A stretch of DNA of 64,000 nt, taken from assembly GCA_937129145.1 (NCBI GenBank), contig CAKZMU010000009.1:80551-144550 (forward strand), read 5' to 3'. The position numbers and the translations under genes are program-made. This document shows, one piece after another, positions 7,184 to 32,551 of the stretch. The first letter of the stretch is position 1; each line of letters begins with the position of its first letter. The DNA comes from an uncultured Lacinutrix sp. GTDB taxonomy: Bacteria; Bacteroidota; Bacteroidia; Flavobacteriales; Flavobacteriaceae. The notes beneath the pieces are model-generated. The model saw only the letters and a list, made by a program, of their open reading frames with translations, did not search any database and had not been told where the DNA came from.

Positions 7184-9046
7184 ATGAAAAATCTATTTTC
7201 GAATTTAAGAGGTGATATTTTTGGAGGTGTTACAGCAGGGATTGTAGCATTACCTTTAGCATTAGCCTTTGGTGTATCCTCAGGATTAGGTCCAAGCGCT
7301 GGATTATATGGCGCAATTTTTATTAGCTTTTTTGCTGCACTTTTTGGAGGAACAAATACTCAAATTTCTGGACCAACTGCACCTATGACAGCCGTAAGTA
7401 TGGTTGTTATTGCAGGTGTTATTGCTGTAAACGATGGCGATGTTGAAAAAGCACTTCCAGCTATATTAACAGTATTTATTTTAGCAGGATTAATGCAAAT
7501 AGGTCTTGGTGCTTTAGGGCTTGGTAAGTATATTAGGTACATCCCTTATCCTGTTGTATCTGGATTTATGACAGCTATTGGAGTCATAATTTTAGTCACT
7601 CAAATTTTACCATCTTTAGGGTATTATCCAAAAGACGATGTGGAGTTTGTTGAGAGCTTCAAACCAGTAGCTGAAGAGTTAATATTGGAAAACATCCTAA
7701 AAGAAGAAGCGGGAGAAGGCATTTTGGTGCTTGAAGATTTTAAAGAAACAATTGACAGAGCTGAAAAAGTAACACCAAACCAAATACTCAAAGAATCTCA
7801 AACTCTAGCAGCTAAGGATGCGTCTGGTGTAATGGGAGCATTTAAAGTATTACCAAGAGCCTTACAAAATATTAATTGGCTTGAACTACTACTGGCTCTC
7901 GGTACTATATTTATCATTTATGGGTTTAAACGAATCACAAAAGCAGTTCCAAGCACATTGGTCGCATTGGTTGTAATGACCTCGATTGCCATTGGATTTA
8001 GTCTTAATTATCAGCCAATCGAAAGAATACCTGAAGGATTACCAACTATTAAAACTGAAATCTTCACCCAATTTAGCTTAGGCTCTATAACACCATATAT
8101 ATTTACAGCATTGACACTAGCACTATTGGGTGCAATCGATTCTCTATTAACTAGCGTTGTTGCCGATAATATGACAAAGACTAAACACAAACCTAATAAA
8201 GAATTAGTAGGTCAAGGAATTGGAAATACCATAGGCGCATTATTTGGAGGAATTCCTGGAGCTGGAGCTACAATTCGTACTGTAGTTAATATTAATTCTG
8301 GGGGGAAAACTAAGTTGTCAGGAATGATAGCTGGAATTATGTTGTTAATAATTCTATTGGCTTTAGCACCATTGGCATCAAAAATTCCTGCAGCAGTTTT
8401 AGCTGGAATTTTAATTACTGTTGGGATAGGTGTGATGGATTATAAAGGGCTAAGGGCTATTCCTGCTTTACCAAAAGATATAAAAGTAGGGCCTCTAAAA
8501 TTAAGCTCAGAAGTAGTCGTAATGCTAATCGTATTATTATTATCTACTTTTTGGAATTTAGTATTTGCTGTTGGAATTGGATTGGTAATTGCGTCATTAA
8601 TGTTTATGAAGAAAATTGGTGATTTAACCGCCGAACGTAGTGATGTGAAACCGCTAAAAGAAGAAGCTTGGAAAGATGAAATAGGATTCCCAGAAAACCT
8701 TAAAGAAGAAGTGTTTATCAAGCACCTTAAAGGGCCTTTGTTTTTTGGTTCCACAAGTGAATTCCAAAATCTTACTTTACAAATCCCAGATACCGCAAGT
8801 ACAGTAATCATGAGATTAGGCCGTATGCAGTATATGGACCAATCTGGATTATATGCCATGGAAGATATGCTTCAGGCACTACAAACTAAAGGTGTGGAAG
8901 TGTTGTTTGTAAATCTATTACAACAACCACGCTATATGATGGAACGAATTGATATTATTCCAGATTTTATTCCAGAAGAGCACATTTTCAATAGCTTTGA
9001 TGACTGTGCAAGCTGGGTTAAAGAAAACGTAAAAGACACGCATTAA
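7184..9046 (+). CDS. SulP family anion (sulfate/bicarbonate) transporter with C-terminal STAS domain
   Basis: 620 aa. The polytopic N-terminal part has SulP-type glycine-rich helices, and the C-terminal roughly 130 aa form a soluble STAS-like domain. Confidence 0.85.
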   Translation: MKNLFSNLRGDIFGGVTAGIVALPLALAFGVSSGLGPSAGLYGAIFISFFAALFGGTNTQISGPTAPMTAVSMVVIAGVIAVNDGDVEKALPAILTVFILAGLMQIGLGALGLGKYIRYIPYPVVSGFMTAIGVIILVTQILPSLGYYPKDDVEFVESFKPVAEELILENILKEEAGEGILVLEDFKETIDRAEKVTPNQILKESQTLAAKDASGVMGAFKVLPRALQNINWLELLLALGTIFIIYGFKRITKAVPSTLVALVVMTSIAIGFSLNYQPIERIPEGLPTIKTEIFTQFSLGSITPYIFTALTLALLGAIDSLLTSVVADNMTKTKHKPNKELVGQGIGNTIGALFGGIPGAGATIRTVVNINSGGKTKLSGMIAGIMLLIILLALAPLASKIPAAVLAGILITVGIGVMDYKGLRAIPALPKDIKVGPLKLSSEVVVMLIVLLLSTFWNLVFAVGIGLVIASLMFMKKIGDLTAERSDVKPLKEEAWKDEIGFPENLKEEVFIKHLKGPLFFGSTSEFQNLTLQIPDTASTVIMRLGRMQYMDQSGLYAMEDMLQALQTKGVEVLFVNLLQQPRYMMERIDIIPDFIPEEHIFNSFDDCASWVKENVKDTH

Positions 9047-28951: not shown

Positions 28952-29497
28952 TTGAATAAAACAAACATGGAAAATAATTTACACAACAACTATGTCTTTA
29001 AAGCTATGGACGCATATCCATACGAGCTTGAAGAAACATTGGAAGCATTAAACTATGCTTTATCATATAACAATAAAGATGCGCAAGCATTATGCTTAAT
29101 GGGACGTGTTTATGCTGAACAATTAAAAGATTACGAAACAGCTAAACAATATTTTGCTGAAGCTATTGCGCAACACATGGAAATGCCAAAAACATATCCA
29201 TTTTATATCCAAACTTTATTATGGAATGGTGATTATGAAGAAGCAGATAAATTAATAACATTTGGACTAACTGTAAAGGGTACTGACAAAGCTTTATTAC
29301 AATTATTACAAGGTATTCTTTTTGAAAAACAGGGGGATTTTAAGGCTGCTATCAAGGCATATAAAAAAGCTAATAAAACAGCAACAAACAACTGCTTTAT
29401 TGAATATGTGAATAATGAAATATCTAGGGTTAAAAAGAAAATGGACCCCAGAAAGAAGAAGAAAAAGAAGTCTAACAAAAAAAGAAAGGGGAAATAA
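28952..29497 (+). CDS. TPR-like protein with poly-lysine C-terminal tail
   Basis: 181 aa with TPR-like helical repeats and the C-terminus PRKKKKKKSNKKRKGK. It is followed by the hairpin ATCGGCAA-TCTTGTC-TTGCCGAT. Confidence 0.55.
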   Translation: MNKTNMENNLHNNYVFKAMDAYPYELEETLEALNYALSYNNKDAQALCLMGRVYAEQLKDYETAKQYFAEAIAQHMEMPKTYPFYIQTLLWNGDYEEADKLITFGLTVKGTDKALLQLLQGILFEKQGDFKAAIKAYKKANKTATNNCFIEYVNNEISRVKKKMDPRKKKKKKSNKKRKGK

Positions 29498-29529
29498 AAA
29501 AATCGGCAATCTTGTCTTGCCGATTTAAT

Positions 29530-29613
29530 GGGAACTCGTCAACGTTGGAGAGTTGGTGCAGATTGTAAACCTGTTGCTTAAATGCTAAGAAAGTTCGAAT
29601 CTTTCAGTTCCCA
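29530..29613 (+). tRNA. tRNA-Tyr-like (anticodon GTA), class II, slightly non-canonical
   Basis: Acceptor GGGAACT/AGTTCCC, anticodon loop TTGTAAA, variable arm CTTA-AATGC-TAAG, and T arm GAAAG-TTCGAAT-CTTTC. Anomalies are C at position 8 and an A.C pair closing the anticodon stem. Confidence 0.7.
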
Positions 29614-29627
29614 CAAATAAATAGATT

Positions 29628-29700
29628 GACAAGGTGGCTGAACGGTTAAGGCAACAGACTGCAAATCTGTTTTTTGTGAGTTCAAATCTCACCCTTGTCT
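29628..29700 (+). tRNA. tRNA-Cys (anticodon GCA)
   Basis: Acceptor GACAAGG/CCTTGTC, anticodon arm ACAGA-CTGCAAA-TCTGT, T arm GTGAG-TTCAAAT-CTCAC, and discriminator U as expected for Cys. Confidence 0.85.
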
Positions 29701-29706
29701 CAAAAT

Positions 29707-29779
29707 AGTATCGTAGCTCAATGGCTAGAGCGCTCGGTTGTCTCCCGAGAAGTTGCGGGTTCGAATCTCGTCGGTACTG
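29707..29779 (+). tRNA. tRNA-Asp (anticodon GTC)
   Basis: Acceptor AGTATCG/CGGTACT, D arm GCTC/GAGC, anticodon arm CTCGG-TTGTCTC-CCGAG, T arm GCGGG-TTCGAAT-CTCGT, and discriminator G. Confidence 0.85.
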
Positions 29780-29780
29780 C

Positions 29781-29844
29781 GAAGCAGTTTAAGAGATGAG
29801 AAGTTTACCCTGAGCGTAGTCGAAGGGAATCTTGTCGGTACTGC
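29781..29844 (+). repeat. conserved 46-nt tRNA-trailer element (copy A) plus an 18-nt duplicate of the tRNA-Asp 3' end
   Basis: 29781-29826 is GAAGCAGTTTAAGAGATGAGAAGTTTACCCTGAGCGTAGTCGAAGG. 29827-29844 (GAATCTTGTCGGTACTGC) repeats 29763-29780 with 1 mismatch. The core matches copy B at 30181-30226. Confidence 0.8.
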
Positions 29845-29848
29845 AAAT

Positions 29849-29931
29849 CTGGGAGGATAATCCCGAAGGTTCGGGAGTGGTTTACTCGCTTTGGAAGCGA
29901 GAGGTTGTAGGTTCAAATCCTACCTCTCAGA
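29849..29931 (+). tRNA. tRNA-Pro-like (anticodon TGG) with a hairpin insertion in the D-loop
   Basis: Acceptor CTGGGAG/CTCTCAG (C1:G72 and A73, as in bacterial tRNA-Pro), anticodon arm CTCGC-TTTGGAA-GCGAG, and T arm GTAGG-TTCAAAT-CCTAC. The D region is about 10 nt too long because of the hairpin TCCCGAAGGTTCGGGA (29861-29876). Confidence 0.6.
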
Positions 29932-29937
29932 CAAAAT

Positions 29938-30009
29938 ACTCCGTTAGTCAAATGGCTAAGACGCCTGACTTTCTATCAGGAATTAAGGGTTCAATTCCCT
30001 TACGGAGTA
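29938..30009 (+). tRNA. tRNA-Glu (anticodon TTC)
   Basis: Acceptor ACTCCGT/ACGGAGT, anticodon arm CCTGA-CTTTCTA-TCAGG, and T arm AAGGG-TTCAATT-CCCTT. Confidence 0.8.
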
Positions 30010-30014
30010 CACAT

Positions 30015-30100
30015 TGAGATATAGCTTAATTGGTAGAGCGTCGCTCTCATAAGGCGAATGGTTTAGGTTCTCCCGATAGTTATCGGGACTAATATCTCAA
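30015..30100 (+). tRNA. tRNA-Met/Ile2-like (anticodon CAT) with a hairpin insertion in the T-loop
   Basis: Acceptor TGAGATA/TATCTCA, D arm GCTT/GAGC, and anticodon arm TCGCT-CTCATAA-GGCGA. The T-stem is TTAG(G)/(A)CTAA, but the T-loop is TTC followed by the 18-nt hairpin TCCCGATAGTTATCGGGA (30071-30088). Confidence 0.55.
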
Positions 30101-30106
30101 CAACAC

Positions 30107-30179
30107 GCAGGAATGGCGAAACGGCAAACGCACTCGACTTAGAATCGAGAAACTGGGAGTTCGAATCTCTCTTCCTGTA
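30107..30179 (+). tRNA. tRNA-Leu-like (anticodon TAG) with a short (5-nt) variable loop
   Basis: Acceptor GCAGGAA/TTCCTGT, a class-II-like D arm (TGGCGAAACGGCAAACGC), anticodon arm CTCGA-CTTAGAA-TCGAG, variable region of only AAACT, and T arm GGGAG-TTCGAAT-CTCTC. Confidence 0.65.
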
Positions 30180-30180
30180 C

Positions 30181-30246
30181 GAAGTAAGGAAAGAGATGAG
30201 AAGTTTATGCTGAGCGAAGTCGAAGTGAATCTCTCTTCCTGTACGA
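30181..30246 (+). repeat. conserved 46-nt tRNA-trailer element (copy B) plus a 20-nt duplicate of the tRNA-Leu(TAG) 3' end
   Basis: 30181-30226 is GAAGTAAGGAAAGAGATGAGAAGTTTATGCTGAGCGAAGTCGAAGT. 30227-30246 (GAATCTCTCTTCCTGTACGA) exactly repeats 30163-30182. Confidence 0.8.
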
Positions 30247-30247
30247 T

Positions 30248-30321
30248 GCTCCACTAGCCCAAATGGAAGAGGCAACAGTTTTAAGCGCTGTTAAGTCCAA
30301 GTTCGAATCTTGGGTGGAGTA
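30248..30321 (+). tRNA. tRNA-Leu-like (anticodon TAA) with a short variable loop
   Basis: Acceptor GCTCCAC/GTGGAGT (G1:U72), anticodon arm ACAGT-TTTAAGC-GCTGT (alternatively AACAG/CTGTT with a 9-nt loop), variable TAAGT, and T arm CCAAG-TTCGAAT-CTTGG. Confidence 0.6.
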
Positions 30322-30327
30322 CAAAAT

Positions 30328-30451
30328 AAGCTTATGGTGTAATGGAAAGCACACAAGGTTTAGCTCATGCATATCTATTTCAAGAAATAGGTATTCGTGA
30401 ATGCAAAGCATTTCGAACCTTGGAGTATGGGTTCAAGTCCTATTAAGCTTA
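30328..30451 (+). tRNA. tRNA-like gene (probably Arg, anticodon TCG) with a 52-nt insertion in the anticodon loop
   Basis: Acceptor AAGCTTA/TAAGCTT, D arm GTGT/GCAC, anticodon stem CAAGG (30354-58) / CCTTG (30418-22) enclosing 59 nt, and T arm ATGGG-TTCAAGT-CCTAT. The last 7 loop nt, TTTCGAA, form a canonical loop. The insert at 30359-30410 contains the hairpin CTATTTC-AAG-GAAATAG. Confidence 0.55.
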
Positions 30452-30456
30452 CAAAA

Positions 30457-30527
30457 TAACCTGTGGTGTAACGGTAACACTCAAGATTTTGATTCTTGTA
30501 TTATAGGTTCGAATCCTATCAGGTTAT
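30457..30527 (+). tRNA. tRNA-Gln (anticodon TTG)
   Basis: Acceptor TAACCTG/CAGGTTA, D arm GTGT/ACAC, anticodon arm CAAGA-TTTTGAT-TCTTG, and T arm ATAGG-TTCGAAT-CCTAT. Confidence 0.8.
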
Positions 30528-30535
30528 CAAAAAAT

Positions 30536-30608
30536 GGAACAGTAGCAAAGTTGGTCAATGCGTCGGACTGAAAATCTGAAAATACAGGTTCAATTCCTGT
30601 CTGTTCCA
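30536..30608 (+). tRNA. tRNA-Phe (anticodon GAA)
   Basis: Acceptor GGAACAG/CTGTTCC, anticodon arm TCGGA-CTGAAAA-TCTGA, and T arm ACAGG-TTCAATT-CCTGT. Confidence 0.82.
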
Positions 30609-30768
30609 CTAAAATTAAAGATTCCTGCCTATGCAGGAAATAATATCAAGCTGGTCTTGTTGAGTGTTTCGGTATAGCACTATTGTATAAATCGTTGCAG
30701 AAATGCATCATGAGTTTATGTTCAACTAGACTTGAAGGTTTTGACTGTTAACCAAAAAATGGTCTCCC

Positions 30769-30803
30769 CCTATAGGTCGTGGGTTCGACTCCCACTTATC
30801 CCA
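30769..30803 (+). pseudogene. orphan tRNA 3' half (anticodon-stem 3' strand, variable loop, T arm, acceptor 3' strand)
   Basis: CCTAT-AGGTC-GTGGG-TTCGACT-CCCAC-TTATCCC-A. No matching 5' half lies upstream. The complementary 5' half lies 3 nt downstream. Confidence 0.6.
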
Positions 30804-30806
30804 ATT

Positions 30807-30873
30807 GGGATAGTAGTTCAGTGGTTAGAACAATAGGATGTAGGTGTTGCTGGTTCGATTCCAGTCGTTTGCT
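30807..30873 (+). pseudogene. tRNA 5' half (acceptor 5' strand, D arm, anticodon-stem 5' strand) fused to an unrelated T arm and acceptor 3' strand
   Basis: GGGATAG-TA-GTTC-AGTGGTTA-GAAC-A-ATAGG is followed by ATGTAGGTGTT, then GCTGG-TTCGATT-CCAGT-CGTTTGC. The acceptor strands within this unit do not pair. GGGATAG and ATAGG pair perfectly with the upstream fragment at 30769-30803. Confidence 0.55.
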
Positions 30874-30888
30874 TGGAGAAATTCCTTG

Positions 30889-30950
30889 GCAATAGTAGCT
30901 CAATTGGTAGAGCACTGCACTTTTAATGCAGGTTTGGACTCAAAATCCAC
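30889..30950 (+). pseudogene. tRNA-Lys-like (anticodon TTT) fragment lacking a matching acceptor 3' strand
   Basis: GCAATAG-TA-GCTC-AATTGGTA-GAGC-A-CTGCA-CTTTTAA-TGCAG is followed by a degenerate T arm (TGGA-CTCAAAA-TCCA). No CTATTGC-like 3' strand lies downstream. Confidence 0.5.
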
Positions 30951-31450
30951 AATCAAAAGCCCATCATCTTTTAAAACTGATGACCAACGCAGATTGTCAT
31001 TCTGCTCAACAAAAATGACAAAAATAGTAGATTGCAAGTCGGCTTTAGATTCCTGCATTACTGACGCATCGGTCAACACTGGTCGTGGGAATGACAAAAC
31101 TAGAGCAGTCTTGAAAGTGCCTTGAAATACTGATTTTTAATAGTAGAAGTGGTTACTGTTTTGTAATAAGAAATTATATAAATCTGATTATCGATTCATA
31201 TAGTTGTCACAATACTCAGCACTAATTACAGGCACTATTAATATGAGTATTTCCGCACCAGAAAAATGATTTGCTTTCTGCTATTTTTAACAATGAAGAG
31301 ATATAAAAATATACTTCAATTAATGATGAACTCGTCATTGTTTTTTGAAGTTGGTAAGCCTTCCGTTACAAGAATTGCCGCCACGCTCAAAAATGGGCAA
31401 CAATAAATGTTTAATCTTCCTGAAATAAATTCAGGATAAAAAAATTAGAA

Positions 31451-32551
31451 ATGATGAAACGAGTAAGAATTAATGTTGGAGAAGTAGGATTGGTTTTCAA
31501 AAGAGGTGATTACAAAAGAGTAATTACTCAAGGAAAAAACTGGTTAGGGTTTGGCGAGCGTGTTTTAACCTATAACTTAGCTCATGCTTTCGTTGCTCCA
31601 AAAACACTAGAACTCTTGCTAAAAGACGAGGTGTTGGAGGCAATGTTAGACATTATTGAAGTAAAGGATGGTGAACTTGTATTGGTTTACGAAAAAGGGA
31701 GCTTTAAAACTGTTTTAACTGCTGGTCGTTATGTGTACTGGAAGGGTTTGATTAATCGTGAATATACACGCGTTGATTTAAGCAAAATTTATATTACTGA
31801 AAACATTGACAAAGCATTGTTTAGTAACTATGAATTAAGCAAATACATTCGAGTTTTTGAAGTAGCTGCTTACGAAAAAGCTATCCTTTTGGTAGATGAT
31901 GTATATACAAAGACGCTTGACGGCGGTACATACCGATTCTGGAGAAATGATACCACAATTAAAATTGCTAAGGCTGATTTACGTCAGTTACAACTAGAAA
32001 TTGCTGGACAAGAATTGTTAACTAAAGATAAAGCAGCTATTCGTATCAACTTTTACACACAGTATAAAGTAACAGATATTGAAAAGGCTTTACTAGGAAA
32101 CAAAGATTATGAAAAGCAATTATACATTGCTATGCAATTGGTATTGCGCGCTTACATTGGTACTTACACACTAGATGAATTGCTAGAGCGTAAAGAAAAC
32201 ATTGCAGAAGCTGTATTTGAAGATGTTAAAGCAAGTGCATCAAAATTAGGTGTAAGCGTTTTAAGCTGCGGTATTAGAGATGTGATTTTAACCGGAGATA
32301 TGAAAGAGATTATGAACCAGGTTTTAGTTGCACAAAAGAAAGCGCAAGCAAATACAATTACAAGACGTGAAGAAACAGCTTCTACTCGTAGCTTGCTAAA
32401 TACGGCAAAGTTGATGGAAGAGAATAACATGCTGTACAAGCTAAAAGAAATGGAGTATGTTGAAAAAATCGCTGAGAAAATTGGTGAAATCACAGTCTCA
32501 GGTAATGGTGGAATGGTAACACAATTGAAAGAGATTTTCTCTGGAAAATAA
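31451..32551 (+). CDS. slipin/SPFH (band-7) family protein
   Basis: 366 aa. The C-terminal half has an SPFH-like core and a coiled-coil (QKKAQANTITRREETASTR). Confidence 0.7.
   Translation: MMKRVRINVGEVGLVFKRGDYKRVITQGKNWLGFGERVLTYNLAHAFVAPKTLELLLKDEVLEAMLDIIEVKDGELVLVYEKGSFKTVLTAGRYVYWKGLINREYTRVDLSKIYITENIDKALFSNYELSKYIRVFEVAAYEKAILLVDDVYTKTLDGGTYRFWRNDTTIKIAKADLRQLQLEIAGQELLTKDKAAIRINFYTQYKVTDIEKALLGNKDYEKQLYIAMQLVLRAYIGTYTLDELLERKENIAEAVFEDVKASASKLGVSVLSCGIRDVILTGDMKEIMNQVLVAQKKAQANTITRREETASTRSLLNTAKLMEENNMLYKLKEMEYVEKIAEKIGEITVSGNGGMVTQLKEIFSGK

What the first reader, a model, noticed from the sequence alone, without database searches (positions are those of the whole stretch)
30609..31130. 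Array tail: a tRNA with its 3' half placed 3 nt upstream of its 5' half, plus chimeric and truncated tRNA pieces and repeated short motifs
The segment 30769-30803 (CCTAT-AGGTC-GTGGG-TTCGACT-CCCAC-TTATCCC-A) is followed after ATT by 30807-30837 (GGGATAG-TA-GTTC-AGTGGTTA-GAAC-A-ATAGG). The acceptor (7 bp, one G:U) and anticodon stems (ATAGG/CCTAT) of these two pieces are perfectly complementary, but the order is permuted: 3' half first. This gives a tRNA body whose acceptor stem is closed by a small loop and whose anticodon loop is open. It could be a circularly permuted tRNA-like gene, or it could be the junction of two tandem copies that each lost their outer halves. Downstream lie a foreign T arm with an acceptor strand (30849-30873) and a Lys(TTT)-like unit without a matching 3' strand (30889-30950). 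There is also an isolated anticodon-arm-like hairpin, GCAGA-TTGTCAT-TCTGC (30989-31005). Three short motifs recur: AGATTCCTGC at 30619 and 31047, GGTCGTGGG at 30775 and 31081, and ATAGTAG three times.
Basis: seen in the sequence. Interest (0 to 1): 0.6.

Follow-up and report, generated by a model that had tools for sequence, protein, structure and literature searches.

The report
Permuted tRNA mimics inside conserved RNA
The "scrambled tRNA" is real, but it is not array debris: it is one of two tRNA look-alike modules inside a roughly 640-base structured RNA that Flavobacteriaceae keep next to a stomatin-like gene, and I found this RNA in neither Rfam 15 nor the papers I could search.

Summary
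30769-30837 folds as a cloverleaf whose acceptor stem is closed by a 4-nt loop and whose anticodon loop is open.

It is not decay. The same arrangement sits at the same place, upstream of an SPFH/stomatin-like gene, in 79 Flavobacteriaceae genomes and in about 75 metagenome contigs. Compensatory changes are plentiful: 96% of cells pair, 22 of 33 pairs change on both sides, and there are 72 different acceptor strands. G·U outnumbers A·C by 110 to 8, so selection acts on a + strand RNA.

The "foreign T arm" and the "Lys-like unit" form a second module of the same kind. Their acceptor stem is also made across the junction.

Both modules lie inside a covarying RNA of about 640 nt (30646-31290). 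It has a near-invariant 5' domain and a long 3' domain.

The module has the topology of the tRNA-like domain of bacterial YrlA Y RNAs. It is not a YrlA member: it scores 35 bits against a threshold of 69, it lacks the Ro60-binding motif, and no rsr gene is nearby.

The tRNA array is a variable insert at this locus, and GOLLD RNA is present in 14 related loci. Function is unknown. I infer tRNA mimicry that recruits tRNA-recognising factors, possibly with RNase P cleavage.

The parts
30619..30641 (+). Hairpin AGATTCCTGC-CTAT-GCAGGAA after tRNA-Phe. It is not conserved between genomes and marks the gap between the array and the RNA.
   Evidence: Sequence. Scored as terminator-like on the minus strand. 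This stretch differs between genomes.
30646..30735 (+). 5' domain. A closing helix (30646-30655 with 30725-30735) encloses three hairpins. This is the most sequence-conserved part of the RNA (GTCTTGTTGNGTGTTTCNGTA...).
   Evidence: Conservation profile over 79 genomes. RNAalifold helices with compensatory pairs. The pattern retrieved 99 metagenome contigs.
30743..30764 (+). Hairpin H0 (GACTGTT / AATGGTC) with the conserved loop AACCAAAA.
   Evidence: 7 pairs, 5 of them with changes on both sides. 94% of cells paired in 79 sequences.
In order: closing-stem 3' strand 30769-73, variable-loop equivalent 30774-78, T arm 30779-95, acceptor 3' strand 30796-802, loop 30803-06, acceptor 5' strand 30807-13, U8-A9, D arm 30816-31, closing-stem 5' strand 30833-37.
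   Evidence: MFE fold. All four helices covary and the acceptor helix has 7 of 7 compensatory pairs. The model scores 118.7 bits here. Rfam YrlA scores 35.2 bits. Re-joined halves give a cloverleaf.
30849..30931 (+). tRNA-like module B. It comprises T arm 2 (30849-65), acceptor-2 3' strand (30866-72), loop (30873-88), acceptor-2 5' strand (30889-95), D arm 2 (30898-913) and a complete anticodon-like arm (30915-31, loop CTTTTAA). It is open in the variable region.
   Evidence: RNAalifold: acceptor 2 has 7 of 7 compensatory pairs and 92.7% of cells paired. Anchor test: 5.95 of 7 paired against 3.26 in the control. Rfam tRNA scores 30.5 bits for 30889-30955.
30935..30949 (+). Degenerate T-arm-like hairpin TGGA-CTCAAAA-TCCA after module B.
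   Evidence: Sequence. A similar hairpin occupies the same place in many homologues, while other homologues carry a different hairpin there.
30962..30982 (+). Hairpin CATCA / TGATG with a near-invariant 11-nt loop TCTTNTAAAAC.
   Evidence: 5 pairs, 4 of them compensatory, 95.6% of cells paired. Also predicted.
30989..31005 (+).
   Evidence: Aligned in fewer than half of 79 homologues; 92% Watson-Crick and 3 of 5 pairs compensatory.
31034..31274 (+). 3' domain. It is a long irregular hairpin closed by 31034-40 with 31268-74. It contains a variable hairpin (31042-31106) that carries a window-specific insert.
   Evidence: RNAalifold on 79 sequences gives several helices of 7-11 pairs, nearly all with compensatory changes. 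G·U 184 against A·C 47. The default MAFFT alignment is weaker here.
31283..31290 (+). Conserved T-run after the last helix. This is the likely 3' end of the RNA (inferred).
   Evidence: Conservation profile. The simple terminator scan did not call it.
31451..32551 (+). SPFH / stomatin-like protein gene (366 aa), the constant downstream neighbour of the RNA.
   Evidence: Pfam Band_7. Closest solved relatives are stomatin and QmcA. It lies downstream of the RNA in all 107 loci of at least 9 kb that carry this gene, while most other neighbours are not conserved.
28952..29497 (+). Small TPR protein gene (181 aa, lysine-rich C-terminal tail), the frequent upstream neighbour. The tRNA array lies between this gene and the RNA.
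   Evidence: Pfam TPR. Translation. Present upstream in 60 of 107 loci, about 1.25-1.35 kb from the SPFH start where there is no array.

Best explanation
30769-30837 is a tRNA-mimic module: a T arm, an acceptor stem closed by a small loop, and a D arm, all enclosed by a 5-bp helix that stands where the anticodon stem would be. A second module of the same kind follows directly at 30849-30931. Both are internal parts of one conserved structured noncoding RNA of about 640 nt on the + strand (30646 to about 31290). In Flavobacteriaceae this RNA lies upstream of a stomatin-like SPFH gene and usually downstream of a small TPR-protein gene.

**Shown**
- The fold, its conservation, its covariation and its strand.
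- The retention of the tRNA tertiary-contact nucleotides: U8, A14, G15-C48, G18-G19, and T54-Ψ55-C56-A58 as TTCGA.
- The constant feature across genomes is the 'top half' of a tRNA (the T arm stacked on a closed acceptor stem, plus the D-arm elbow). The acceptor sequence, the loop length and even the point where the cloverleaf is opened all vary.

**Inferred**
- The modules fold into L-shaped tRNA look-alikes. These give the long RNA rigid elbows and docking sites for factors that recognise the tRNA top half, such as RNase P, TruB/TrmA-type modifiers and the CCA-adding enzyme.
- In the variants with 15-24-nt loops, the loop is probably cut by RNase P and trimmed. Those loops often begin ACCA, ACTA or ACAA straight after the acceptor 3' strand. 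Cutting would leave a nicked, base-paired, multi-piece RNA, as happens with Mycobacterium smegmatis YrlA and with two-piece tmRNA.
- In this window the loop is only 4 nt, so the acceptor is probably a closed hairpin.
- The RNA probably works together with the co-conserved SPFH protein and perhaps the TPR protein.
For: **Fold.** MFE equals the permuted cloverleaf. Re-joined halves give a canonical cloverleaf.

**Covariation, 20 sequences.** 96.2% of cells are paired, against 38-54% when partners are slid. 22 of 33 pairs change on both sides. No shuffle out of 500 reaches the observed score.

**Distribution.** The model scores 50-133 bits at the orthologous site in 79 genome loci, with tRNA junctions at 44 bits or less. 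It scores 59-128 bits in about 75 metagenome contigs, each about 90 nt downstream of the 5'-domain pattern.

**Anchor-based test on 172 loci.**
- Junction 1 pairs at 6.38 of 7 positions with 72 distinct strands; the control gives 3.52.
- Junction 2 pairs at 5.95 of 7 with 78 distinct strands; the control gives 3.26.
- A third junction is present in 20 loci.

**Strand.** G·U/U·G 110 against A·C/C·A 8. The same direction holds in every domain.

**Whole-RNA structure.**, 46 of 77 predicted pairs have compensatory changes.

**Context.** Only the SPFH gene is always conserved next to the RNA, and the TPR gene often. The RNA is present where no tRNA array exists.

**Topology.** The module matches the YrlA model at E = 1.9e-6 and at 30-45 bits in 20 homologues.

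**Precedent for processing.** A YrlA with a 7-bp closed acceptor is cleaved by RNase P in vitro, and is cleaved and CCA-tailed in vivo (PMC4201824).
Against: - There are no expression data. The transcript ends, the promoter and the claim of a single ~640-nt transcript are all inferred from conservation. The simple scan found no convincing promoter or terminator.
- No partner protein or activity has been tested. RNase P cleavage is argued only by analogy.
- The folding energy of the module alone is not exceptional (z = -1.26; z = -0.69 for the 141-nt stretch).
- In this window the acceptor of module B has two mismatches (5 of 7 paired).
- The alignment of the 3' domain is uncertain under default MAFFT.
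- Conserved adjacency to the SPFH gene could reflect a cis-regulatory role rather than a trans-acting one.
Confidence: 0.7

Rival explanations
1. It is a bacterial Y RNA (YrlA family). Its tRNA-like domain tethers an Ro60 (Rsr) ring to an effector such as PNPase.
For: The module topology is the same: T arm, closed acceptor-like stem, D arm. Rfam YrlA is the best non-tRNA match, at 35.2 bits and E = 1.9e-6, and it scores 30-45 bits in homologues. YrlA features are taken from PMC4201824.
Against: - The score is half the gathering threshold of 69 bits.
- The Ro60-binding 5'-strand motif GNCGAAN0-1G is absent from the window RNA and occurs upstream of module A in only 2 of 78 homologues.
- None of the window's 16 ORFs of 400 aa or more was identified as a TROVE protein. 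Thirteen were scanned against Pfam and one is annotated FG-GAP in L001. The two not scanned are 947 and 1133 aa, far larger than an Rsr of about 500-550 aa.
- The constant neighbours are SPFH and TPR genes, not rsr or rtcB.
- The module is embedded in about 640 nt of conserved structure, not in an 80-130-nt RNA.
Confidence: 0.07
2. It is a long structured 5' leader or cis-regulator of the downstream SPFH mRNA. On this reading the tRNA-like modules act as processing or sensing sites.
For: The RNA is on the same strand as the SPFH gene and always lies 560-940 nt upstream of it, even where that protein is only 44-55% identical. There is a further conserved hairpin in the spacer before the start codon.
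Against: - A conserved T-run follows the last helix at 31283-31290.
- A promoter-like site lies between the RNA and the gene at 31287-31315, matching 10 of 12 positions.
- Optional elements are tolerated between the RNA and the gene: Flavo-1 and other inserts of up to about 300 nt.
- 640 nt with 2-3 tRNA mimics is far larger than known leaders.
Confidence: 0.15
3. It is debris: the junction of two tandem copies of one tRNA gene that lost their outer halves, with other truncated tRNA pieces around it.
For: Tandem identical tRNAs with a short spacer would give complementary strands across the junction automatically. The element sits at the end of a tRNA array that does contain degenerate tRNA-like units.
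Against: - About 160 loci from many genera keep the same order.
- 72 different acceptor strands all still pair.
- All helices covary.
- G·U far outnumbers A·C.
- The element is present in genomes with no array.
- No orthologous locus examined shows two complete copies in its place.
Confidence: 0.02
4. It is a true circularly permuted tRNA gene. On this reading its transcript is circularised and re-opened to give a working, decoding tRNA, as in Cyanidioschyzon merolae.
For: The 3' half lies upstream of the 5' half. The body is complete apart from the anticodon loop. Some variants carry ACCA after the acceptor 3' strand.
Against: - The residues that flank the 5-bp closing stem are not conserved as an anticodon loop. 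There is no invariant U33, no purine 37 and no fixed anticodon.
- Most variants close the acceptor with a loop of 0-7 nt.
- No bulge-helix-bulge motif is evident, and bacteria are not known to have that splicing pathway (established knowledge; not tested here).
- In the closest relative, L003, the module is opened at a different point.
Confidence: 0.02
5. It is a DNA-level feature: a recombination or integration hot spot made of tRNA-like sequence that captures tRNA arrays and GOLLD genes.
For: tRNA arrays of 0-18 genes lie immediately upstream of it, and GOLLD does so in 14 loci. Module content differs even between close relatives, as in L003.
Against: Strand-asymmetric G·U pairing and compensatory changes in hairpins point to selection on an RNA. 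The near-invariant 5' domain is not tRNA-like. No phage, plasmid or viral copies were found.
Confidence: 0.05

Closest known systems
YrlA, the bacterial Y RNA-like family (Rfam RF02553; Chen et al. 2014, PMC4201824)
   Same: The module order is the same: T arm, acceptor-like stem closed by a loop, D arm, all enclosed by a helix in the anticodon-stem position. The D and T arms are near-invariant and the acceptor stem is free to vary. A 7-bp closed acceptor is known to be an RNase P and CCA-adding substrate in M. smegmatis.
   Different: - There is no Ro60-binding motif and no rsr/rtcB neighbourhood.
- The score is half the family threshold.
- There are two or three modules in series.
- They are embedded in a ~640-nt RNA with unrelated 5' and 3' domains.
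- The neighbours are SPFH and TPR genes.
Two-piece (circularly permuted) tmRNA of alpha-proteobacteria, cyanobacteria and some beta-proteobacteria
   Same: The gene order puts the T arm and acceptor 3' strand before the acceptor 5' strand. The linking loop is excised, giving a base-paired two-piece RNA with a tRNA-like top half.
   Different: - There is no G3·U70 alanine identity; the pair is G3-C70 here.
- There is a full D arm instead of a degenerate one.
- There is no tag reading frame.
- ARAGORN finds no tmRNA.
- Rfam tmRNA models score 8-25 bits against thresholds of 47-84.
Circularly permuted tRNA genes of Cyanidioschyzon merolae and some green algae and archaea (PMC3978253)
   Same: The 3' half of a tRNA body is encoded upstream of the 5' half, and the two are joined across the acceptor ends.
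   Different: Those genes yield real decoding tRNAs through a circular intermediate and bulge-helix-bulge splicing. Here no anticodon loop can be rebuilt, the acceptor is mostly closed by a tiny loop, and the organism is a bacterium.
GOLLD and ROOL large ornate RNAs (Rfam RF02032, RF03087)
   Same: They are large, heavily structured RNAs of unknown function that sit next to tRNA islands (PMC5737381, PMC12286853). GOLLD itself lies directly upstream of this RNA in 14 related loci. There it contains a T-arm / closed-acceptor / D-arm junction of the same type.
   Different: No GOLLD or ROOL match in the searched part of the window, 29400-31400. This RNA is chromosomal and vertically conserved in one bacterial family. 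It was not found in phage, plasmid or viral collections.
Flavo-1 RNA motif (Rfam RF01705; Weinberg et al. 2010)
   Same: It is a Bacteroidetes motif that turns up inside some homologous loci, between the RNA and the SPFH gene (48.7 bits in L118).
   Different: It is an optional hairpin element of about 100 nt. It is absent from this window and is not part of the conserved core.

Membership tests
YrlA / bacterial Y RNA (RF02553) | tRNA-like domain with the order T arm, closed acceptor-like stem, D arm | tested here: met
   Fold, covariation, alignment to the YrlA model.
YrlA / bacterial Y RNA (RF02553) | Reaches the Rfam gathering score of 69 bits | tested here: not met
   35.2 bits in the window. 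30-45 bits in 20 homologous loci.
YrlA / bacterial Y RNA (RF02553) | Ro60-binding stem with the 5'-strand motif GNCGAAN0-1G (PMC4201824) | tested here: not met
   No match anywhere in the window RNA. Only 2 of 78 homologues have it upstream of module A, in a variable stretch.
YrlA / bacterial Y RNA (RF02553) | Encoded next to rsr (Ro60 orthologue, TROVE domain), often with rtcB/rtcA | tested here: not met
   Pfam scans of 20 ORFs, including 13 of the 16 ORFs of 400 aa or more, show no TROVE or RtcB. One further ORF is annotated FG-GAP in L001. The two not scanned are 947 and 1133 aa. The conserved neighbours are SPFH and TPR. The rest of the genome could not be searched.
YrlA / bacterial Y RNA (RF02553) | Discrete RNA of 80-130 nt bound by Rsr | not testable with these tools
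   Needs RNA-seq or immunoprecipitation. Conservation suggests a unit of about 640 nt instead.
Circularly permuted tRNA gene | 3' half encoded upstream of the 5' half of one tRNA body | tested here: met
Circularly permuted tRNA gene | The ends rebuild a functional anticodon loop (U33, anticodon, purine 37) | tested here: not met
   The residues flanking the closing stem vary freely among homologues.
Circularly permuted tRNA gene | Bulge-helix-bulge motif, a circular intermediate, and processing to a chargeable tRNA | not testable with these tools
   No bulge-helix-bulge motif is evident by eye. Circular RNA and charging need experiments.
Two-piece (permuted) tmRNA | tmRNA model match, G3·U70 pair and a tag-peptide frame | tested here: not met
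   ARAGORN finds no tmRNA. Rfam tmRNA_permuted scores 16.2 and 8.1 bits against 47. The acceptor pair 3-70 is G-C.
GOLLD RNA (RF02032) | Match to the conserved 3' half of GOLLD | tested here: not met
   No Rfam match in the window. nhmmer with a neighbouring-locus GOLLD finds only tRNA-like noise in the window.
Flavo-1 RNA (RF01705) | Match to the Flavo-1 model | tested here: not met
   No match with E up to 10 in 30950-31330 or in 29400-31400.
Canonical tRNA gene or pseudogene | 5' and 3' acceptor strands of one unit pair with each other in the normal order | tested here: not met
   ARAGORN calls nothing in 30610-31130. The Rfam tRNA hits at 30807-30873 (26.2 bits) and 30889-30955 (30.5 bits) have unpaired acceptors. 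Each strand pairs across the junction instead.

The most novel reading that the evidence does not exclude
The element marks an undescribed class of large structured RNA (about 640 nt) in Flavobacteriaceae. It would be built around two or three serial, domain-swapped, circularly permuted tRNA bodies. [quoted passage not shown] This RNA would function as a particle with the co-conserved cage-forming SPFH protein and the basic-tailed TPR protein. The locus would also serve as the docking site for tRNA arrays and GOLLD RNA.
Probability: 0.2. Interest if true: 0.85.

Novelty: new variant of a known kind. Interest (0 to 1): 0.72.

Why it matters
- **A new occurrence of a rare design.** tRNA mimicry with a closed acceptor stem was previously described in bacteria for Y RNAs and, in permuted form, for two-piece tmRNA. 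Here the same design recurs two or three times in series, inside a much larger conserved RNA that has nothing to do with Ro60.
- **It points to what the mimic is for.** What selection keeps is the tRNA 'top half' (the T arm stacked on the acceptor, plus the D elbow). That makes this a natural test case for the purpose of such mimics.
- **A new candidate large RNA.** The RNA is a family-wide candidate with a fixed protein neighbour of a cage-forming family. It is also physically linked to tRNA islands and to GOLLD RNA, whose functions are a long-standing open question. It offers a chromosomal setting, in genera that include named, sequenced isolates, in which to study that link.
- **A practical annotation point.** Annotation pipelines will mislabel the region as tRNA pseudogenes. 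Rfam tRNA passes its threshold at 30889-30955.

Tried and rejected
- **tmRNA, standard or permuted.** Only weak Rfam hits appeared, caused by the T arm. ARAGORN is negative.
- **Permuted group I intron flanking permuted exons.** I considered this because the order (5' domain, tRNA 3' half, tRNA 5' half, downstream domain) resembles engineered permuted intron-exon constructs. No Intron_gpI match at E up to 10 was found, and no anticodon loop can be rebuilt, so I rejected it.
- **Flavo-1 as the 3' domain.** Rejected. Flavo-1 is an optional insert elsewhere and is absent here.
- **Phage, plasmid or viral origin.** The viral-contig scan gave one 22-nt chance match inside a coding region. There was no blastn match in the phage or plasmid collections.
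- **Anti-phage defence association.** PADLOC gave nothing for the SPFH protein and one weak TPR hit.
- **Protein coding in the region.** The ORFs 30844-31125 (+) and 30900-31097 (-) are listed. The region shows hairpin covariation and many length changes between genomes. No formal coding test was run.
- **Promoter and terminator scan.** It was uninformative; Bacteroidota promoters are not covered.
- **First anchor-based junction script.** The register was off by one, which gave chance-level pairing. The corrected version is.
- **Literature.** Searches for a described Flavobacteria RNA of this kind found nothing. Absence from the held library is not proof of novelty.
Full report
**1. The observation**

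- CCTAT-AGGTC-GTGGG-TTCGACT-CCCAC-TTATCCC-A
- then ATT
- then GGGATAG-TA-GTTC-AGTGGTTA-GAAC-A-ATAGG

RNAfold returns the permuted cloverleaf as both the minimum-energy and the centroid structure. The energy by itself is ordinary (z = -1.26). If the two halves are re-joined in the normal order through an artificial 7-nt loop, ARAGORN calls a canonical 76-nt tRNA. The body is therefore complete apart from the anticodon loop.

The nucleotides that make the tertiary contacts of tRNA can be read directly in the sequence: U8, A14, G15 with C48, G18-G19, and the T loop TTCGA.

ARAGORN calls nothing between 30610 and 31130. The Rfam tRNA model gives only marginal matches with unpaired acceptors, at 30807-30873 (26.2 bits) and 30889-30955 (30.5 bits).

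**2. The host and the first lead**

The window is a bacterial chromosome of about 34% G+C with housekeeping genes. The gene just downstream at 31451-32551 encodes an SPFH/Band_7 protein. Its closest relatives in the genome collection are all Flavobacteriaceae, with Gaetbulibacter at 92% amino-acid identity.

The best non-tRNA Rfam match to the element is YrlA, the bacterial Y RNA-like family. It scores 35.2 bits with E = 1.9e-6 against a gathering score of 69. As a control, the ordinary junction between tRNA-Cys and tRNA-Asp scores 17.7 bits with the same model.

YrlA RNAs contain a tRNA-like domain in exactly this order: T arm, acceptor-like stem closed by a loop, D arm (PMC4201824).

**3. 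Comparative test**

I fetched 80 loci around SPFH orthologues. The element and the whole stretch after the tRNA array are conserved at 67-84% identity in the same position in almost all of them.

On a 20-sequence alignment the six helices I named behave as follows:

- 96.2% of cells are paired, against 38-54% when the partners are slid by 1-3 columns.
- 22 of 33 pairs show changes on both sides.
- All 7 pairs of the acceptor helix show changes on both sides.
- None of 500 shuffles reaches the observed covariation score.

A covariance model built from that alignment scores 50-133 bits at the orthologous site in 79 loci. Junctions between ordinary neighbouring tRNAs score 44 bits or less.

A pattern taken from the conserved 5' domain retrieved 99 metagenome contigs. 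About 75 of them carry the element roughly 90 nt downstream on the same strand, at 59-128 bits.

I also ran a test that does not depend on any alignment. It takes the 7 nt after each T arm and the 7 nt before the next D arm, in 172 loci:

| Junction | Positions paired (of 7) | Distinct 3' strands | Control: strands from different genomes |
|---|---|---|---|
| First | 6.38 | 72 | 3.52 |
| Second | 5.95 | 78 | 3.26 |
| Third (20 loci) | 6.69 | 10 | 4.14 |

G·U/U·G cells outnumber A·C/C·A cells by 110 to 8. This fits selection on a + strand RNA and does not fit a DNA palindrome.

It is not met. The orthologues keep the permuted order.

**4. The neighbouring 'pieces'**

The 'foreign T arm with an acceptor strand' (30849-30873) and the 'Lys-like unit without a 3' strand' (30889-30950) form a second module:

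- T arm 2
- acceptor 3' strand (30866-72)
- loop
- acceptor 5' strand (30889-95)
- D arm
- a complete anticodon-like arm

The acceptor helix pairs at only 5 of 7 positions in this window. Across 79 genomes it is 92.7% paired and all 7 pairs show compensatory changes.

Module B is opened in the variable region, whereas module A is opened in the anticodon loop. The anticodon triplet of module B is not conserved (TTT, GTA, CAT, TAA, GTT and others), while the loop positions on either side of it are nearly constant (C32, U33, A38).

Some Tenacibaculum and Aquimarina genomes have a third module with a class II body.

In the closest relative, L003, module A itself has a class II D arm and is opened at a different point. 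The constant feature is therefore the tRNA 'top half': T arm, closed acceptor and D elbow.

Acceptor loops fall into two classes. In 74 distinct sequences, 53 are 0-7 nt long and 21 are 18-24 nt long. Across the wider set of 172 loci, loops of 9 nt or more often begin ACCA, ACTA or ACAA immediately after the acceptor 3' strand.

**5. The larger unit**

Conservation over 79 genomes runs from about 30644 to about 31290. RNAalifold finds one large covarying architecture (independently, one search gives 77 pairs of which 46 have compensatory changes):

- a 5' domain closed by 30646-55 with 30725-35; this is the most sequence-conserved part
- hairpin H0 (30743-64)
- modules A and B
- a hairpin with an invariant 11-nt loop (30962-82)
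- a long 3' domain closed by 31034-40 with 31268-74
- a conserved T-run at 31283-90

G·U exceeds A·C in every domain.

That this is a single transcript of about 640 nt is an inference. The promoter and terminator scan was uninformative.

**6. Genomic context**

Among 107 loci of at least 9 kb that carry the SPFH gene, that gene lies downstream of the RNA in all of them. A small TPR protein with a lysine-rich tail lies upstream in 60. Every other neighbour seen in this window (RecJ, OsmC, CMD, M28 peptidase, UDG and others) is shared only with the one to three closest relatives.

The SPFH protein is down to 44-55% identical in some metagenome loci and is still adjacent to the RNA. Its closest solved relatives are the ring- and cage-forming stomatin and QmcA proteins.

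The tRNA array between the TPR gene and the RNA varies from 0 to 18 genes. The RNA is therefore not a by-product of the array.

In 14 loci a GOLLD RNA lies directly upstream of the RNA (147 bits, E = 2e-39 in L085). GOLLD and ROOL are known to sit near tRNA islands (PMC5737381; PMC12286853).

No copy was found in viral contigs, phage genomes or plasmids.

**7. How it most likely works**

What is shown: a conserved, strand-specific RNA structure whose modules keep the shape-determining nucleotides of tRNA.

What is inferred:

- The modules fold as L-shaped tRNA look-alikes. They give the long RNA rigid elbows and docking surfaces for proteins that read the tRNA top half.
- Where the acceptor loop is long and starts with a CCA-like triplet, RNase P and 3' trimming probably nick it. 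The precedent is M. smegmatis YrlA, which RNase P cleaves in vitro and which is cleaved and CCA-tailed in vivo. Two-piece tmRNA is a second precedent.
- In this window the loop is 4 nt, so module A is probably a closed hairpin.
- A functional link to the SPFH and TPR proteins is suggested only by conserved adjacency.

**8. Comparison with known families**

The module works like the YrlA tRNA-like domain, but membership fails on three tested features:

- the family score threshold
- the Ro60-binding motif
- the rsr neighbourhood

It is not a tmRNA, a GOLLD or a Flavo-1 RNA.

It is not a C. merolae-type permuted tRNA gene, because no anticodon loop can be rebuilt.

Rfam 15 has no family that reaches its gathering score across the RNA; the only qualifying match is a marginal tRNA hit to module B at 30889-30955. 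Five literature searches found no description of it.

**9. Verdict**

The 'decayed junction' and 'array tail' readings are wrong.

The element is a new variant of a known kind, the closed-acceptor tRNA mimic. It is present in series inside what appears to be an undescribed large structured RNA of Flavobacteriaceae. Its function is unknown.

My confidence that this is a selected RNA module is high. My confidence in the proposed mode of action is moderate to low.

Noticed in passing
window 29781-29843 and 30181-30246; L015 about 7810-7950; L086 about 1830-2030: A roughly 64-nt unit follows tRNA-Asp and tRNA-Leu(TAG). It is an insert (GAAG..AGAGATGAGAAGTTTAnnCTGAGCGnAGTCGAAGnGAATCT) followed by a second copy of the tRNA's own last 17 nt or so. 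The start of the insert is complementary to the acceptor 3' strand of each tRNA (ACTGC-GAA-GCAGT; CCTGTAC-GAA-GTAAGG). One metagenome contig carries it twice in tandem. It has no Rfam match.
   Followed up: partly
window 30331-30452: A tRNA-like gene with an insert of about 57 nt in the anticodon loop (CAAGG ... CCTTG). ARAGORN and Rfam do not call it. A similar interrupted tRNA lies next to GOLLD in L085. The insert is far too short for a bacterial group I intron.
   Followed up: no
window 29871-29931, 30020-30078, 29528-29613: Degenerate array members: a tRNA-like unit without a D arm (Rfam 36.3 bits), a partial tRNA with a CAT loop (30.6 bits), and a weak class II tRNA(GTA)-like unit (15.6 bits).
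   Followed up: no
L085 817-1319 (-); L005, L006, L009-L012, L017, L020-L022, L080, L089, L124: GOLLD RNA lies between the tRNA array and the conserved RNA in 14 related loci and is absent from this window. About 160 nt into these GOLLD copies there is a T arm, then an acceptor 3' strand, a short loop that often begins ACC, and a complementary 5' strand with a D arm (for example TATCTAA/TTGGATA pairs at 7 of 7). This is the same closed-acceptor junction as in the finding.
   Followed up: partly
L118 374-473 (-); L155 634-730; inserts in L004, L016, L019, L020, L031, L065, L075, L081: A Flavo-1 RNA motif (RF01705; 48.7 bits in L118) occurs as an optional insert between the RNA and the SPFH gene in some genomes (GCGTNAGGGATAG...GATAGCCCGACC). 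It is absent from this window.
   Followed up: partly
window 31352-31385 and 31246-31256: There is a conserved hairpin in the spacer before the SPFH start codon (GGTAAGCC-TTCCGTTAC-...TTGCC). The motif TTTCCG also appears at 31249-31254 inside the 3' domain. Both are conserved across genera and could be a shared protein-binding site.
   Followed up: no
window 28952-29497: The small TPR protein that often flanks the locus ends in a very basic tail (KKKMDPRKKKKKKSNKKRKGK). That would suit nucleic-acid binding.
   Followed up: no
window 31056-31094: A window-specific insert of about 38 nt sits inside the variable hairpin of the 3' domain. It carries the second GGTCGTGGG copy. Other genomes have a short palindrome at this position (AGATTYCYGC...GCRGGAATGAC).
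   Followed up: partly
L001, L002 (metagenome contigs carrying the identical SPFH protein): Both shown assemblies that carry the identical SPFH protein stop shortly upstream of the gene (56 and 407 nt), inside or just after the conserved RNA. This suggests that assemblers stop within this RNA and tRNA-array region.
   Followed up: no
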